This document shows positions 17,717-33,236 of a stretch of 38,769 nucleotides of DNA, in pieces. Source of the stretch: a virus (Duplodnaviria; Heunggongvirae; Uroviricota; Caudoviricetes). Location of the stretch: positions 1 to 38,769 of the IMG/VR virus record IMGVR_UViG_2778261204_000005; one strand, given 5' to 3'. The notes beneath the pieces were generated by a model, which had not been told where the DNA came from, ran no database searches, and saw nothing but the letters and a program-made list of their open reading frames with translations. A program made the translations under genes and the position numbers. Position 1 is the first letter of the stretch, and the number at the start of each line of letters is the position of its first letter.

Positions 17717-18150
17717 GCAGAGTAACCGCGATTATCTCCGCTCTGGTTATCTGCATCATCGTCTGTCTGTCATGGGCTGTTAATCATTACCGTGATAACG
17801 CCATGACCTACAAAGAGCAGCGCGATAAAGCCACATCCATCATCGCTGACATGCAGAAGCGTCAACGTGATGTAGCAGAACTCGACGCCAGATACACAAA
17901 GGAGCTTGCTGATGCTAACGCGACTATCGAAAGTCTCCGTGCTGATGTTTCTGCTGGGCGTAAGCGCCTGCAAGTCGCCGCCACCTGTGCAAAGTCAACG
18001 ACCGGAGCCAGCAGCATGGGCGATGGAGAAAGCCCAAGACTTACAGCAGATGCTGAACTCAATTATTACCGTCTCCGAAGTGGAATCGACAGGATAACCG
18101 CACAGGTTAACTACTTGCAGGAGTACATCAGGACGCAGTGCCTTCGATGA
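17713..18150 (+). CDS. Rz: i-spanin Rz
   Basis: N-terminal TM, coiled-coil periplasmic domain; follows R. Confidence 0.85.
17906..18097 (+). CDS. Rz1: o-spanin Rz1 lipoprotein, embedded in +1 frame of Rz
   Basis: Signal peptide with lipobox (LGVSAC), proline-rich mature part, wholly inside Rz. Confidence 0.75.
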
Positions 18151-18324
18151 TAGCGATAATTTTACTCATCATCCTTCACATCTGGCTCTGTAGACAGGAT
18201 GGTGATCACTTCTGGAGTGAATCCAGATTAAACATCTCATTGCTGATGCTTGAAGTTGAGCATCTGGCGCGCGGTAAGGGGCTGCGTTGAGATAAGAGCC
18301 AGTCATTACAAATACCAGGATTTA

Positions 18325-18350
18325 GCCTCGCATTCGCGGGGCTTTTTATT
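18325..18350 (+). terminator. rho-independent terminator after the lysis cassette
   Basis: GCCTCGC-ATTC-GCGGGGC followed by TTTTTATT. Confidence 0.6.
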
Positions 18351-18371
18351 CCCAACTCTATAGGTAATTTT

Positions 18372-18893
18372 ATGACCCAGCATATTGGCGTAAAACTGAT
18401 TAACGCCTTTCCGATGACGAGACAGGCATATAACGATTTTCGTGGCTGGCAGCTTCCTGCCGGAGAAAACGGCGAGGATGAAGGCTATCTGGTTGAATAT
18501 CTTGATGGCGGAAAACCTAACACCGATCGCTTTGATGGCTACGTTAGCTGGAGTCCAAAAGAAGTATTCGAAAAGGCTTATCGTCCGGTATCAGGGCTAA
18601 GTTTCGGCCTTGCCATTGAAGCGCTCAAGTTGGGGAATAAAGTTTCCCGTGCTGGCTGGAATGGTAAGGGTATGTGGCTGGCATACGTTAAACCGTACAC
18701 TGAGGCTGTTCATACTGGCAGTACGCCTTGCTTTTGCAGTCGCGTCTTTGAGTTGCCTGAAGGTACGCATGGAGAATCGAAACGATCTCCGAAACAACTT
18801 CCGTATATCGCCATGAAAACAGCGGACGATAAATTAGTGCCGTGGCTGGCTAGTCAGACTGATGTTCTAGCAGAAGACTGGCAAATCATTTAA
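18372..18893 (+). CDS. two-domain accessory protein; C-terminal half resembles DUF2829 (family recalled to include Tad2 anti-Thoeris sponges)
   Basis: C-terminal GWNGKGMW ... PW.ASQTD.LAEDW signature; family assignment from memory, unverified. Confidence 0.45.
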   Translation: MTQHIGVKLINAFPMTRQAYNDFRGWQLPAGENGEDEGYLVEYLDGGKPNTDRFDGYVSWSPKEVFEKAYRPVSGLSFGLAIEALKLGNKVSRAGWNGKGMWLAYVKPYTEAVHTGSTPCFCSRVFELPEGTHGESKRSPKQLPYIAMKTADDKLVPWLASQTDVLAEDWQII

Positions 18894-19124
18894 CCATGTA
18901 GCCATTACAAAGCCCATCTACTGGTGGGCTTGATAATGAAACCGGAATTTATTCTGGGCAACCAGTTACGGCAGTACCACGAAACAACCCAAGCCAGTAA
19001 GTGGGGAAATAACACTGGCAGCCACTGAAAGATGAACCTCCTGCCTTATGGCAAAAAAGATTCTTTGTGGTGGCGGACTGATGGAAAGACATCCTAATTT
19101 CAGCCAAACATTGAAGGAGTTGTT

Positions 19125-19196
19125 ATGTCAGCAGAAGGTTTCAATAACCCATCAAAATTCCGGGATGAGTGGGATAGCAGCGTAAAGAGTAAGTGA
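19125..19196 (+). CDS. 23-aa small ORF (MSAEGFNNPSKFRDEWDSSVKSK), paralog of 19544..19615
   Basis: AAGGAG RBS; peptide conserved with the second copy; found by hand translation. Confidence 0.45.
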   Translation: MSAEGFNNPSKFRDEWDSSVKSK

Positions 19197-19298
19197 TGCC
19201 ATCACAAAAGCCATTCCCTACAGAGTGGCTTTGATGGCTTATACCCTACACGGGATAGCTTAACTGATATCCCTTTTAACGGATAAACGGAGCCAACA

Positions 19299-19541
19299 AT
19301 GGCAGAGATTATTCCCATGACTGAAGAACAGAAATTCCAGTTAGAGATTTACAAACTGGTCATGAACCAGAACGCAGCCGCAGAGGAAGCATTTCAGTTC
19401 ATTGGCACTGACGAGCTGAAGCTTGAGCTATTTAAAATTCACTTCCAGTCAGGCGGCGCTAACTCAGATATCACGACCCGCACTATCGAAGCGGTACGTA
19501 AATCGAAGGAAGCGTTAGACCTGTTCACTACGGGAGCGTAA
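19299..19541 (+). CDS. hypothetical 80-aa acidic protein
   Basis: ORF with GGAG RBS, flanked by the two small paralogous ORFs. Confidence 0.5.
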   Translation: MAEIIPMTEEQKFQLEIYKLVMNQNAAAEEAFQFIGTDELKLELFKIHFQSGGANSDITTRTIEAVRKSKEALDLFTTGA

Positions 19542-19543
19542 AC

Positions 19544-19615
19544 ATGGCAACTCAAGGTTTCGACAACCCATCCAAATTCCGCGATGAATGGGATAAGCAA
19601 GCAGAAGGGAAATAA
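19544..19615 (+). CDS. 23-aa small ORF (MATQGFDNPSKFRDEWDKQAEGK), paralog of 19125..19196
   Basis: Starts 2 nt after orf80 stop, ends 5 nt before terS ATG; GGGAG RBS. Confidence 0.45.
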   Translation: MATQGFDNPSKFRDEWDKQAEGK

Positions 19616-19620
19616 TCAAT

Positions 19621-20046
19621 ATGGCGACTGAGAAAAAGAAAGGTGGTCGCCCCTCTGATTATATGCCGGAGGTGGCTAATGACATTTGCGCATTGCTTTC
19701 CTCCGGTGAGAGTCTGCGCAAAGTTTGCGAACGCCCAGGAATGCCGAGCAAAACATCAGTTTTTCGCTGGCTGGCTGAACATCAGGAGTTTCGTGACCAG
19801 TACGCGAAGGCAACAGAGACTCGGGCCGACTCTATTTTCGAAGAGATATTCGAAATTGCTGACGACGTAATCCCTGATGCCGCCGAGGTGGCAAAGGCAA
19901 GACTTCGCGTTGATACCCGCAAATGGGCGCTGGCCAGAATGAATCCCCGTAAGTATGGCGACAAGGTAACTAATGAGCTTGTCGGCAAAGACGGCGGCGC
20001 AATCCAGATTGAAACATCACCGATGAGCACTCTGTTCGGAAAATGA
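19621..20046 (+). CDS. terminase small subunit (Sf6 gp1-type)
   Basis: Recognised as Sf6 gp1-like TerS; precedes large terminase with 4-nt overlap. Confidence 0.85.
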   Translation: MATEKKKGGRPSDYMPEVANDICALLSSGESLRKVCERPGMPSKTSVFRWLAEHQEFRDQYAKATETRADSIFEEIFEIADDVIPDAAEVAKARLRVDTRKWALARMNPRKYGDKVTNELVGKDGGAIQIETSPMSTLFGK

Positions 20047-31239: not shown

Positions 31240-33236
31240 TGGCTAAAGCATGGAAAGATGTTATCGCCTCTCCACAGTATCAGGCGTTAGCACCAGAACA
31301 AAAAGCGCAGGCTCAGGAGCAATACTTCAATGAAGTCGTGGCCCCGCAAGCCGGAGAAAATGCAGAGCAGGCTAAGCAAGCTTTCTATGCAGCCTATCCA
31401 TTGCCATCCGTGCAGCCAGTGGAGACACAGCAACCAGTAGCACAGCAACAACCACAGCAAAGTGGATTTATGTCTGATCTTGGCGAAGCAGTAAAAGAGA
31501 CTGGTCGCGGACTGGTGCAGGCTGGCGTGAACGTGGCAAACATACCTGCATCAGTTGCCGATGCTGTAACAAGCGCGGCGGCTTGGGCTGGCGGTAAACT
31601 CGGCATTGGCGATGGGACATATCAACCAGCGCCACGAGTAACAACGCAGGGATTAGAGCAGGACTTTGGCCTTCAGCAAGGCGCGCTGACTCCACAAACT
31701 ACAGAGGGCAGGGTATTTGCTGAGGCATTGCCTTACCTCACTCCTGCTGGCATTGAGAGAGCGGCAACACAGGCACCAACACTCGCTGGTAGAATCGCTC
31801 AGGGTGCAACTCGCCTTCTCGCTGAAAACGCAGTCGGGTCACTTGCTGCAAATAGTGCGAAAGATGATGCGGAAGCACTCGCTACCGATTTAGGCGTTGG
31901 CGTTCTGGCTGGCGGCGCTATTAACGCTGCCGGACGTGGATTAGGCGCTGCTTATCGTGGCGTTCGTGGTGCTATTGCACCAGAAGCGCAGCAGGCTATC
32001 AGATTTGCAGAGCGTGAAGGAATTCCTCTGCACACCACAGACCTGTTACAACCAACTTCCCGCGTCGGAAAAATGGCGCAGACTACAGCAGAAAATATCC
32101 CTCTGGCTGGCACAAGCGGAATGAGAGCAACGCAACAGGAAGCGAGAAGCCAGCTGGTGCAGAGATTTGCCGATAAATTCGGTGAGTATGATCCAGCGGT
32201 TGTTATTGACAGCCTTAAAGCGAAAACATCAGGAATTCGTCGTGCCGCCGGTAATCGACTGGAGCAGGTTCAGAATGCTATGGCTGGAGTAAACATTCAG
32301 CCTGCGCGAGCAATTCAGCAGATTGATACAGAAATATCTAATCTGCAGAAGCTTGGTAAGGTCGCTGATAACGAGACTATTTCAAAACTTCAGTCATATC
32401 GTGATGAGCTTGTTCGCAATGCTGGTCCTGATGGTCCGGTAAATCTGGACTTGAAGCAATTAAGCGATCTGCGCAGCCAGTTCAGAATGGACGTGAAGGG
32501 TGAGCGACCAGTGTTACCAAACCGTTCCGATGCCGCCATTCAGCGCGTTTACAAGGCGATGACCGACGATATCAATGGTGCCATTGGTCAGAATCTTGGC
32601 AACGATACTCTCCGTAAATATCAGCAGGCCAATGCCGTCTACGCTGACGAAGCGGCGAAACTCAAGAATACCAGGCTGAAGAATGTTCTCATGAAAGGCG
32701 ATCTGACGCCGGAAGTTGTCAACAACATGCTATTCAGCAAGAACAAATCTGAAATTAAGACGCTGTATAACTCAGTTGGTCGTGTTGGCAGGGCGCAAAT
32801 GCGCAATGGCATCATTGGAAAGGCGATGGAGAAATCTGGCGGATCCCCTGACCAGTTCCTTCGGCAGCTTAACATCCTGCAAAACCAGACTGGCATCACA
32901 TTTAAAGGTCAGGAAGCCGCTTATCTGAAAGGATTGAAAAACTACCTGCAATCCACGCAGCAGGCTGCAAAAGCGGCAGTAACAACACCAACAGGGCAGC
33001 AAACCATCCCGTTCATTATCGGATATGGGACAGCAATGAACCCTGCGACAACTGGCGCAGCGGTAAGCTACGGACTTCTTACTCGCGCCTATGAGAGCGA
33101 GCCATTCAGAAATGCAATGCTCCGAATGGCAAACACACCACGCGGATCAACAGCGTTTGAGAAAGCCATGCAGCATGCGCAAAAGGCCATTAACGCTCTG
33201 ACTCAGGGTGCCAAGTCTGATGCGTTGTCAGAATAG
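31239..33236 (+). CDS. ejection protein gp16-type
   Basis: 665 aa, position. Confidence 0.65.
   Translation: MAKAWKDVIASPQYQALAPEQKAQAQEQYFNEVVAPQAGENAEQAKQAFYAAYPLPSVQPVETQQPVAQQQPQQSGFMSDLGEAVKETGRGLVQAGVNVANIPASVADAVTSAAAWAGGKLGIGDGTYQPAPRVTTQGLEQDFGLQQGALTPQTTEGRVFAEALPYLTPAGIERAATQAPTLAGRIAQGATRLLAENAVGSLAANSAKDDAEALATDLGVGVLAGGAINAAGRGLGAAYRGVRGAIAPEAQQAIRFAEREGIPLHTTDLLQPTSRVGKMAQTTAENIPLAGTSGMRATQQEARSQLVQRFADKFGEYDPAVVIDSLKAKTSGIRRAAGNRLEQVQNAMAGVNIQPARAIQQIDTEISNLQKLGKVADNETISKLQSYRDELVRNAGPDGPVNLDLKQLSDLRSQFRMDVKGERPVLPNRSDAAIQRVYKAMTDDINGAIGQNLGNDTLRKYQQANAVYADEAAKLKNTRLKNVLMKGDLTPEVVNNMLFSKNKSEIKTLYNSVGRVGRAQMRNGIIGKAMEKSGGSPDQFLRQLNILQNQTGITFKGQEAAYLKGLKNYLQSTQQAAKAAVTTPTGQQTIPFIIGYGTAMNPATTGAAVSYGLLTRAYESEPFRNAMLRMANTPRGSTAFEKAMQHAQKAINALTQGAKSDALSE

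What the first reader, a model, noticed from the sequence alone, without database searches (positions are those of the whole stretch)
19125..19615. Pair of paralogous 23-codon ORFs flanking an 80-aa ORF immediately upstream of terS
Two small ORFs encode MSAEGFNNPSKFRDEWDSSVKSK and MATQGFDNPSKFRDEWDKQAEGK. Each has its own Shine-Dalgarno sequence, and the second is packed exactly between orf80 (2-nt gap) and terS (5-nt gap). The peptides share a conserved GF.NPSKFRDEWD core while the DNA has diverged, which argues for selection on the peptide rather than a recent DNA duplication. I do not recognise a function; such micro-ORFs are below the 60-aa cut-off of the supplied track.
Basis: seen in the sequence. 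Interest (0 to 1): 0.55.

Follow-up and report, generated by a model that had tools for sequence, protein, structure and literature searches.

The report
Conserved 23-codon phage micro-gene family
The two tiny ORFs are real copies of a conserved, never-annotated 23-31-residue peptide gene that moves as a small cassette through the lysis-to-packaging region of lambda-like phages of enteric bacteria; its function is still unknown.

Summary
ORF2 lies 2 nt after orf80 (DUF2560) and 5 nt before an Sf6-type terS.

Between the two copies the 13-codon core has pS 0.59 and pN 0.03. In a set of relatives chosen only by their upstream sequence, 87 of 90 anchors are followed by an intact ORF of exactly 23 codons.

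The ORFs belong to a family seen in more than 190 viral contigs, about 6% of complete E. coli genomes, and prophages of Enterobacter, Proteus and Providencia. It always lies between the spanin genes and terS. No library or paper searched describes it. The nearest relative is Pfam DUF2740 (P22 orf48), through a shared 17-residue motif scoring below Pfam's cut-off.

The pair is not a conserved architecture. Each copy is a separate cassette that normally occurs alone. The two lie side by side in only 1 of 5,426 E. coli genomes.

Function is inferred, not shown. My best guess is a late-expressed, single-helix accessory peptide that binds a partner in trans.

The parts
18324..18343 (+). Intrinsic terminator after the lysis cassette (AGCCTCGCATTCGCGGGGCT followed by a T run). 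Versions of the same terminator lie just upstream of the Proteus-type micro-ORF and about 80 nt downstream of the 27-aa type.
18372..18893 (+). Accessory gene with a Tad2-like (Thoeris anti-defence 2) domain. It marks the region as an accessory/anti-defence slot.
   Evidence: PF11195, E 3e-25
19094..19124 (+). 31-nt leader of the ORF1 cassette, with the Shine-Dalgarno site GAAGGAG at 19113-19119. It is the first part of a 103-nt insertion relative to P22, HK620 and Kapi1.
19125..19196 (+). ORF1, a 23-codon micro-gene (MSAEGFNNPSKFRDEWDSSVKSK).
19198..19238 (+). Extended hairpin just after ORF1 with no U tract. P22 and HK620 have the same hairpin with compensatory changes.
19299..19541 (+). orf80, a DUF2560 protein (HK620 hkbM, P22 orf80), predicted to be a four-helix protein.
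19532..19536 (+). Shine-Dalgarno site GGGAG of ORF2, inside the 3' end of orf80.
19544..19615 (+). ORF2, a 23-codon micro-gene (MATQGFDNPSKFRDEWDKQAEGK). It occupies the slot that holds the 59-codon hkbN/orf59c in HK620 and P22.
19621..20046 (+). Small terminase subunit of the Sf6 type. Its start codon is 5 nt after the ORF2 stop.

Best explanation
Shown: ORF1 and ORF2 are two copies of a genuine, translated micro-gene family of 23-31 codons. The consensus is x-Q-G-F-D-N-P-[ST]-[KQ]-F-R-[DE]-E-[WL]-D-K followed by about 5 more residues. The family is under purifying selection on the peptide. It travels as a minimal cassette (Shine-Dalgarno site plus ORF) in the late operon of lambdoid phages of Enterobacterales, always between the spanin genes and terS. 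The window carries two copies because recombination joined a lineage with the cassette upstream of orf80 to a lineage with the cassette abutting terS.

Inferred: the peptide has no signal or membrane segment and folds as one short amphipathic helix. The helix starts at the invariant Pro, with F12, W/L16 and residue 20 on one face. It is made late in infection and acts in trans as an optional accessory factor by binding a partner protein. That partner is more likely a conserved host or defence protein than a phage protein, because the cassette occurs with unrelated lysis, packaging and virion modules. Where it abuts terS or overlaps the o-spanin stop codon, its translation is probably also coupled to the neighbouring gene. 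I regard that coupling as secondary.
For: Coding and selection:
- Core pN/pS between the two window copies is 0.05, against 0.72 in the flanks.
- In a set picked only by an upstream terminator-plus-SD anchor, 87 of 90 anchors are followed by an intact ORF of exactly 23 codons.
- In that set pN/pS is 0.36 in frame and 0.6-0.7 in the other two frames, which carry stop codons.
- In codons 12-23 of that set, 10 of 14 changes fall at third positions (p = 0.004).
- 72% of 36 distinct upstream contexts have a strong Shine-Dalgarno site, against 9.5% of control positions.

Breadth:
- tblastn finds it in 16 phage records, including P22-like phages, HK544, and Proteus, Providencia and Cronobacter phages.
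- At least 120 IMG/VR stretches match the core pattern.
- The ORF1 cassette is in 129 and ORF2 in 212 of 5,426 complete E. coli genomes.
- Only Enterobacterales appear among 185,579 species representatives.

Cassette nature:
- ORF1 is a precise 103-nt insertion relative to P22, HK620 and Kapi1.
- ORF2 and hkbN are alternatives in one slot.
- Neighbouring genes vary.

Stand-alone peptide: an exhaustive HMMER search of 1.84 billion proteins found only accidental calls of the same micro-ORF, and no larger protein carrying the motif.

Helix:
- AlphaFold puts the homologous DUF2740 motif at the turn and start of helix 2.
- It puts a helix at P9-A20 of the peptide in a natural orf80-ORF2 fusion.

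The region also holds a Tad2-like accessory gene.
Against: - I have no expression data and no identified partner.
- The helix in the fusion model has low confidence (pLDDT 55-63).
- Within each cassette type the DNA is at least 99% identical. The number of independent substitutions behind the selection statistics is therefore modest, and the sequences are related by descent.
- The large IMG/VR set was found with a pattern that fixes the core residues, so it cannot measure core conservation by itself.
- The accessory or anti-defence role rests only on the cassette being optional and mobile and on its neighbourhood.
- No promoter of its own was found.
Confidence: 0.4

Rival explanations
1. The micro-ORF acts in cis as a translational coupling device. 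Ribosomes that finish it reinitiate on terS, or ribosomes finishing the o-spanin gene run into it. On this view only the act of translation matters, not the peptide.
For: - The ORF2 and MVIKVC types end 5 nt before the terS start at an identical junction (AAATAATCAATATGGC), in front of two unrelated terS families.
- The 27-aa types start inside the 3' end of the o-spanin gene.
- The RNA around ORF2 is unstructured (z = +1.36).
Against: - The amino-acid sequence is conserved while silent sites are close to saturated.
- The same peptide occurs with no nearby downstream gene. The Proteus type is followed by a hairpin preceded by an A run, which reads as an opposite-strand terminator. ORF1 is followed by a hairpin and a 102-nt gap.
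- P22 and HK620 lack the cassette and have a different ORF (orf59c/hkbN) in front of terS.
Confidence: 0.15
2. The peptide is real and acts in trans, but on a phage late protein (terminase, spanin or the neighbouring DUF2560 protein), tuning the switch from lysis to packaging.
For: - The cassette always lies between the spanin genes and terS.
- DUF2560 is the immediate neighbour in 42 of about 125 loci.
Against: - The cassette occurs with different endolysin and spanin types, with Sf6-type, P22-type and HNH-associated packaging modules, and in both podovirus and siphovirus genomes.
- Most DUF2560 phages lack it, and HK544 and Pm34 carry it with no DUF2560 gene annotated in the stretch I read.
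- AlphaFold gives no confident docking of the peptide onto DUF2560 in the natural fusion.
Confidence: 0.15
3. The conserved core is kept mainly as DNA, as a short homology patch at module boundaries that promotes mosaic exchange. On this view the ORF is incidental.
For: - L113 is an ORF1/ORF2 hybrid that abuts terS and lacks orf80. It is the product expected from a crossover inside the core.
- P0012 joins the first 17 codons of ORF2 to a gp7-like gene.
- Rad52-like phage recombinases recombine short, diverged homologies (PMC3945230).
Against: - Variation is concentrated at third codon positions, and replacement changes are depleted.
- The start codon, Shine-Dalgarno site, frame and stop position are kept in unrelated contexts.
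- Phages almost never carry two copies, so the core cannot serve as a flanking linker pair.
Confidence: 0.1
4. The nascent peptide is a ribosome-arrest or sensor leader, like TnaC or SecM, that controls late-operon expression.
For: - The C-terminal half (F-R-[DE]-E-[WL]-D-K) is the most conserved part.
- The tail after D17 is 6 residues long in nearly all variants, while the N-terminus varies in length.
Against: - The last residues vary (K, E, A, Q) and lack any arrest motif known to me.
- No constant downstream gene, Rho site or alternative RNA structure accompanies the ORF.
Confidence: 0.05
5. The ORFs are hitch-hiking sequence with no function, and look conserved only because the cassettes spread recently.
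For: - Each cassette type is at least 99% identical across E. coli genomes.
- The cassette is optional.
Against: - The types have diverged strongly from each other, yet all keep an intact ORF across two bacterial families, Enterobacteriaceae and Morganellaceae.
- Core pN/pS is 0.05.
Confidence: 0.08

Closest known systems
Pfam DUF2740 (PF10872), e.g. phage P22 orf48, 48 aa, function unknown
   Same: - Both are tiny hydrophilic ORFs of lambdoid phages of Enterobacterales.
- They share a 17-residue motif (tQGFDnPskFReEwDk against LSSFKQPGRFRAELEKV), and both families alternate L and W at the same column.
- hhalign gives probability 88.6% and P = 2.7e-6. hmmscan gives E = 0.016-0.11.
   Different: - The peptides score 12.7-15.3 bits against a cut-off of 27.
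- DUF2740 is a two-helix hairpin, and the micro-peptides have only the turn and second helix.
- DUF2740 lies in the early operon between c1/cII and the replication initiator gene, not in the late operon.
- After correction for scanning all of Pfam the match is borderline.
Morons of lambdoid phages (extra genes inserted between genes that are adjacent in relatives; concept recalled from the HK97/HK022 comparative work)
   Same: - ORF1 is a precise presence/absence insertion between flanks that are collinear in P22, HK620 and Kapi1.
- It is optional, and it sits in the accessory region that follows the lysis genes.
   Different: - No promoter of its own was found.
- The downstream hairpin lacks a U tract.
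- At 103 nt it is far smaller than described morons.
hkbN (HK620) / orf59c (P22), 59 aa, function unknown
   Same: It occupies exactly the same slot as ORF2, between the orf80 stop codon and the terS start codon.
   Different: I saw no sequence similarity by eye in the translations and the DNA alignment, and hkbN has no DUF2740 hit. It is an alternative cassette, not a homologue.
Phage T4 Stp, a 26-residue anti-restriction peptide (recalled from memory)
   Same: It is a precedent for a free phage peptide of about 25 residues that acts in trans on a host defence complex.
   Different: Stp belongs to a virulent phage and, as I recall, is made early. I tested no sequence relationship. The analogy is functional only and is unproven here.
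Regulatory leader or arrest peptides (TnaC, SecM)
   Same: Similar length, and the peptide sequence is conserved rather than only the ORF.
   Different: There is no constant regulated downstream gene or structure, and the C-terminal residues vary.

Membership tests
Pfam DUF2740 (PF10872) | Score at or above the curated gathering cut-off (27 bits) | tested here: not met
   Seven variants were scanned. Six score 12.7-15.3 bits (E 0.016-0.11) and one (MAVEGSDNPVKFREELDKSIPKE) has no hit. P22 orf48 scores 98 bits.
Pfam DUF2740 (PF10872) | Shared core motif F-x-x-P-x-x-F-R-x-E-[LW]-[ED]-K | tested here: met
   hhalign of A2 against A1 aligns 17 columns with probability 88.6% and P = 2.7e-6. L and W alternate at the same column in both families.
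Pfam DUF2740 (PF10872) | Helical hairpin of about 43-48 residues | tested here: not met
   The DUF2740 model has helices 7-25 and 28-44. The peptides are 23-31 aa and correspond only to the turn plus helix 2.
Pfam DUF2740 (PF10872) | Position between cII/c1 and the replication initiator gene | tested here: not met
   P22 orf48 lies at 32349-32495, between c1 and gene 18. The micro-ORFs lie between the spanin genes and terS. The window has no DUF2740 in the cII-O slot.
Lambdoid-phage moron | Insertion between sequences that are adjacent in related phages | tested here: met
   A 103-nt insertion follows GGAAAGACATC relative to P22, HK620 and Kapi1.
Lambdoid-phage moron | Own promoter upstream and terminator downstream | tested here: inconclusive
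   No sigma-70-like site was found on the + strand in 18100-19700. The hairpin at 19198-19238 has no U tract. A consensus scan cannot exclude a weak promoter.
Ribosome-arrest / leader peptides | A constant downstream gene or RNA switch controlled by the ORF | tested here: not met
   Downstream neighbours include two terS types, DUF2560, Rha/KilA-like genes, an apparent opposite-strand terminator, or nothing within 600 nt.
Ribosome-arrest / leader peptides | Ribosome stalling on the nascent chain | not testable with these tools
   This needs toeprinting or ribosome profiling.
Arbitrium-type phage signalling peptides | Secretion signal on the precursor and an adjacent receptor gene | tested here: not met
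   The translations show no hydrophobic N-terminal stretch, and no constant neighbouring gene exists.
T4 Stp-like anti-restriction peptides | Binding and inhibition of a host restriction complex | not testable with these tools
   This is a functional analogy from memory only. No sequence comparison was made.

The most novel reading that the evidence does not exclude
The family is a new class of minimal phage effector. A free peptide of about 20 residues, forming a single helix, is made with the late genes and disables or decoys a conserved Enterobacterales defence or housekeeping protein. It would be a lambdoid counterpart of T4 Stp, carried as the smallest self-contained accessory cassette so far seen (about 100 nt). 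More exotic readings are not excluded but are less likely: a peptide released at lysis that signals to neighbouring cells, or a nascent-chain sensor.
Probability: 0.2. Interest if true: 0.65.

Novelty: new variant of a known kind. Interest (0 to 1): 0.4.

Why it matters
Gene callers ignore ORFs under about 30 codons. As a result, a conserved gene present in roughly one in sixteen complete E. coli genomes and in many enteric prophages is missing from RefSeq annotation, Pfam, PHROGs and NCBIfam. It is a clean, easily testable case for studying what the smallest phage proteins do. It has only 23 codons, two natural alleles in one phage, natural presence/absence relatives and a natural recombinant. 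It also shows how a 100-nt cassette moves between module boundaries. If the peptide proves to be a counter-defence or host-takeover factor, it would set a lower size limit for such effectors. If it does nothing measurable, it is still a useful annotation fix.

Tried and rejected
- **Literature:** full-text searches found nothing relevant for the motif strings, DUF2740/PF10872, DUF2560/orf59c/hkbN or small ORFs near lambdoid terminase genes. The papers that mention P22 orf48 assign it no function.
- **Family libraries:** there was no hit in PHROGs, NCBIfam or PDB sequences.
- **Protein databases:** a first search failed because the query was too short. A concatenated query and an exhaustive profile search returned only accidental calls of the same ORF. 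No fusion protein gives a functional clue.
- **RNA explanation:** there was no credible Rfam match; the two hits were far below the gathering scores (E about 0.5) and neither lies on the ORF cores. The ORF2 region is less structured than shuffled sequence, and the ORF1 region has only the downstream hairpin.
- **P22 orf25:** this annotated 25-codon ORF lies in the equivalent intergenic region but is unrelated.
- **Docking on DUF2560:** AlphaFold on the natural orf80-ORF2 fusion P0008 gave only low confidence for the peptide part. Foldseek of that model against the PDB found nothing.
- **Frameshift fusion of ORF2 to terS:** I considered this by reading the sequence. terS is in the -1 frame, but there is no slippery heptamer, so I rejected it.
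- **Antisense gene:** the opposite strand is not kept open, and ORF1 itself puts stop codons there.
- **An alignment artefact:** MAFFT placed several peptides on the N-terminus of DUF2560. I treated this as an artefact and dropped those rows.

Full report
**1. What is there**

The window is a P22-like (Lederbergvirus) phage genome. Its closest relatives over this stretch are phages Kapi1 and HK620.

In the part that matters, the late operon reads as follows:
- holin, endolysin and Rz, ending at 18150;
- an intrinsic terminator at 18324-18343;
- a gene with a Tad2-like domain at 18372-18893;
- ORF1 at 19125-19196;
- a hairpin at 19198-19238;
- orf80 (DUF2560) at 19299-19541;
- ORF2 at 19544-19615;
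- an Sf6-type terS at 19621-20046, followed by terL.

Every detail in the finding checks out. That covers the two peptide sequences, the Shine-Dalgarno sites (GAAGGAG at 19113-19119 and GGGAG at 19532-19536), and the 2-nt and 5-nt gaps. A back-translated pattern of the shared core matches the window twice and matched none of 100 shuffles.

**2. Is the peptide under selection?**

The two copies are 51/72 identical at the DNA level: 34/39 in the 13-codon core and 17/33 outside it. By Nei-Gojobori counting, the core has pS 0.59 and pN 0.03 (ratio 0.05). The flanks have pS 0.72 and pN 0.52 (ratio 0.72). Silent sites in the core are therefore about as diverged as anywhere else in the ORF, and only replacements are missing.

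That is a single pair, so I looked for relatives. tblastn against 50,697 phage records found the peptide in 16 of them. These include P22-like coliphages and Salmonella phages, the siphovirus HK544, and phages of Proteus, Providencia, Cronobacter and Enterobacter. In the four I opened, the ORF is exactly 23 codons long with an ATG and a Shine-Dalgarno site.

A degenerate pattern of the core found at least 120 IMG/VR stretches. Their ORFs are 23-31 codons long and fall into about eight subfamilies. That pattern fixes the core residues, so this set cannot be used to measure core conservation.

I therefore ran a second scan with only the upstream terminator-plus-SD sequence of the Proteus-type copies.
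- Of 90 anchors, 87 are followed by an intact ORF of exactly 23 codons. The other three are a contig end, a copy containing an N, and a replaced cassette.
- Among the 40 distinct DNA sequences, pN/pS is 0.36 in frame. It is 0.6-0.7 in the other two frames, which carry stop codons.
- In codons 12-23, 10 of at least 14 changes are at third positions (binomial p = 0.004). R13, E15, L16 and P21 each use two to four synonymous codons.

Across 36 distinct and mostly unrelated upstream contexts, 72% have an anti-SD duplex of -6 kcal/mol or better. Only 9.5% of random positions do.

RNA structure does not explain the conservation. Rfam gave no credible match. The ORF2 region folds worse than shuffled sequence (z = +1.36), and the ORF1 region has only the downstream hairpin.

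I conclude that this is a real protein-coding micro-gene. One caveat applies: sequences within a subfamily are close relatives, so the number of independent changes is modest.

**3. Anatomy and distribution of the family**

The consensus is x-Q-G-F-D-N-P-[ST]-[KQ]-F-R-[DE]-E-[WL]-D-K followed by about five hydrophilic residues. G5, P9, F12, R13, E15 and D17 are invariant in my alignment. Variants from Proteus and Providencia have L at position 16. Variants traced to Escherichia, Salmonella, Enterobacter or Atlantibacter have W.

The longer forms (27-31 aa) differ only by an N-terminal extension. That extension arises where the start codon lies inside the 3' end of the preceding o-spanin gene.

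The position is always between the spanin genes and terS, but the slot differs by subfamily:
- overlapping the o-spanin stop codon (27-aa types);
- just after the lysis-cassette terminator (Proteus type);
- between accessory genes and a hairpin (ORF1 type);
- 5 nt before terS (ORF2 and MVIKVC types). The same junction lies in front of two unrelated terS families, the Sf6 type and the P22 type.

Among one genome per species for 185,579 species, only Enterobacterales carry it. Three MAG contigs assigned to other taxa also match. The two carrying ORF1 have flanks identical to enterobacterial prophage sequence, and the third carries a Proteus-type copy, so I take all three to be mis-binned.

In 5,426 complete E. 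coli genomes the ORF1 cassette occurs in 129 and ORF2 in 212. PGAP annotates it in none of the rows I saw.

Protein databases hold it only by accident. A word-index search of 5.8 billion proteins found 12 entries. An exhaustive HMMER search of 1.84 billion representatives found 21. All are the same micro-ORF, extended by an upstream in-frame start, a lost stop codon or a fusion. No larger protein contains the motif.

**4. The pair is a recombinant, not a unit**

Compared with P22, HK620 and Kapi1, ORF1 with its 31-nt leader is a precise 103-nt insertion after GGAAAGACATC. The flanks on either side are nearly invariant.

ORF2 and the 59-codon hkbN/orf59c are alternative fillings of the same slot, between the orf80 stop codon and the terS start codon.

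Among 195 loci carrying the motif, only the window has two copies. Most ORF2-type loci had ample upstream sequence and show no ORF1. In the E. coli genomes, the two cassettes lie side by side in a single strain, 23CRST032. That strain has a P22-type terS and a different upstream gene, so it is a separate recombinant.

Locus L113 carries an ORF1/ORF2 hybrid abutting terS with no orf80. This is the product expected from a crossover inside the core of a two-copy phage, or else the ancestral state. Phage Rad52-like recombinases are known to recombine short diverged homologies of this kind (PMC3945230).

The window's arrangement is therefore best read as the joining of two lineages that each carried one cassette.

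**5. Closest known family**

Six of the seven variants scanned give a weak hit to Pfam DUF2740 at the same profile positions (12.7-15.3 bits, E 0.016-0.11, cut-off 27). P22 orf48 is a full member at 98 bits.

A profile-profile comparison of 13 peptides with 19 DUF2740 proteins aligns 17 columns, with probability 88.6% and P = 2.7e-6. Both families alternate L and W at the same column. After allowing for the number of Pfam families scanned, this is borderline. I put true homology at roughly 60-70%.

DUF2740 has no known function. It sits in the early operon between c1 and the replication gene. AlphaFold models it as a helical hairpin, with the shared motif at the turn and the start of helix 2. 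The micro-peptides would then be a one-helix version in a different slot.

**6. How it most likely works**

The following is inference.

The peptide is hydrophilic and has no signal or membrane segment. In a natural orf80-ORF2 fusion (P0008), AlphaFold places a helix from P9 to A20, but with low confidence (pLDDT 55-63). There is no confident packing onto DUF2560. By my own reading of the sequence, F12, W/L16 and residue 20 lie on one face of such a helix, and K11-E15, R13-D17 and D14-K18 could form i/i+4 salt bridges.

The cassette is optional, mobile and conserved. It sits in a region of accessory genes, here next to a Tad2-like gene. It also occurs with unrelated lysis, packaging and virion modules. 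I therefore favour a trans-acting accessory peptide that binds a conserved host or defence protein late in infection (confidence about 0.4).

I keep five other readings open at lower weight:
- binding to a phage late protein;
- pure translational coupling;
- conservation as a recombination patch;
- nascent-chain arrest;
- no function.

The evidence for and against each is given in the rival explanations.

**7. Verdict**

The finding is a genuine, previously undescribed micro-gene family, with a borderline link to a domain of unknown function. The flanking pair is incidental, and the function is unknown. This is a useful annotation and small-protein lead, but not evidence of a new kind of system.

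Noticed in passing
window 18372-18893: This 173-aa ORF has a Tad2-like (Thoeris anti-defence 2, PF11195) domain at residues 77-173 (E 3e-25) and an unassigned N-terminal region of about 75 residues. In the related phages Huey and Louie, features under the matching stretch are annotated as anti-CRISPR proteins.
   Followed up: partly
window 19030-19093: A block of about 64 nt is almost invariant across the window, HK620, Kapi1, P22 and HK544, and ends exactly where the ORF1 cassette is inserted. It contains tiny ORFs (MNLLPYGKKDSLWWRTDGKTS at 19032-19097; MAKKILCGGGLMER... from 19048). I did not work out why it is so conserved.
   Followed up: no
window 19198-19238 and 18908-18931: Two similar hairpins (AAAGCC...GGCTTT, followed by GATGG or GATAATG) close ORF1 and the Tad2-like gene. 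P22 and HK620 have GAGGCCA/TGGCCTC in place of AAAGCCA/TGGCTTT, which are compensatory changes. Neither hairpin has a U tract, so they may be boundary or RNA-stability elements rather than terminators.
   Followed up: partly
L113 1872-1943: A hybrid micro-ORF (MSAEGFNNPSKFRDEWDKQTEGK) has the ORF1 upstream region and the ORF2 tail. It abuts terS and has no orf80. This is a crossover inside the conserved core.
   Followed up: yes
L090 564-677: The terminator-plus-SD anchor occurs twice, 87 nt apart. The first copy is followed by only six codons of the micro-ORF before an N. This is either a tandem duplication or an assembly artefact.
   Followed up: no
protein P0012 (70 aa): A chimeric ORF joins the first 17 residues of ORF2 to the C-terminal 55 residues of a P22 gp7-like ejection protein (PF25688). 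This is another joint inside the peptide core.
   Followed up: no
L199 (P22 NC_002371) 32349-32495: The RefSeq product name for P22 orf48 is 'tail protein', but it is a DUF2740 protein in the early operon (98 bits). The name looks like a mis-annotation.
   Followed up: yes
window 18138-18290: A 50-codon ORF overlaps the end of Rz. Its homologue in Kapi1 is annotated as a hypothetical protein with a predicted signal peptide. It has no Pfam match.
   Followed up: partly
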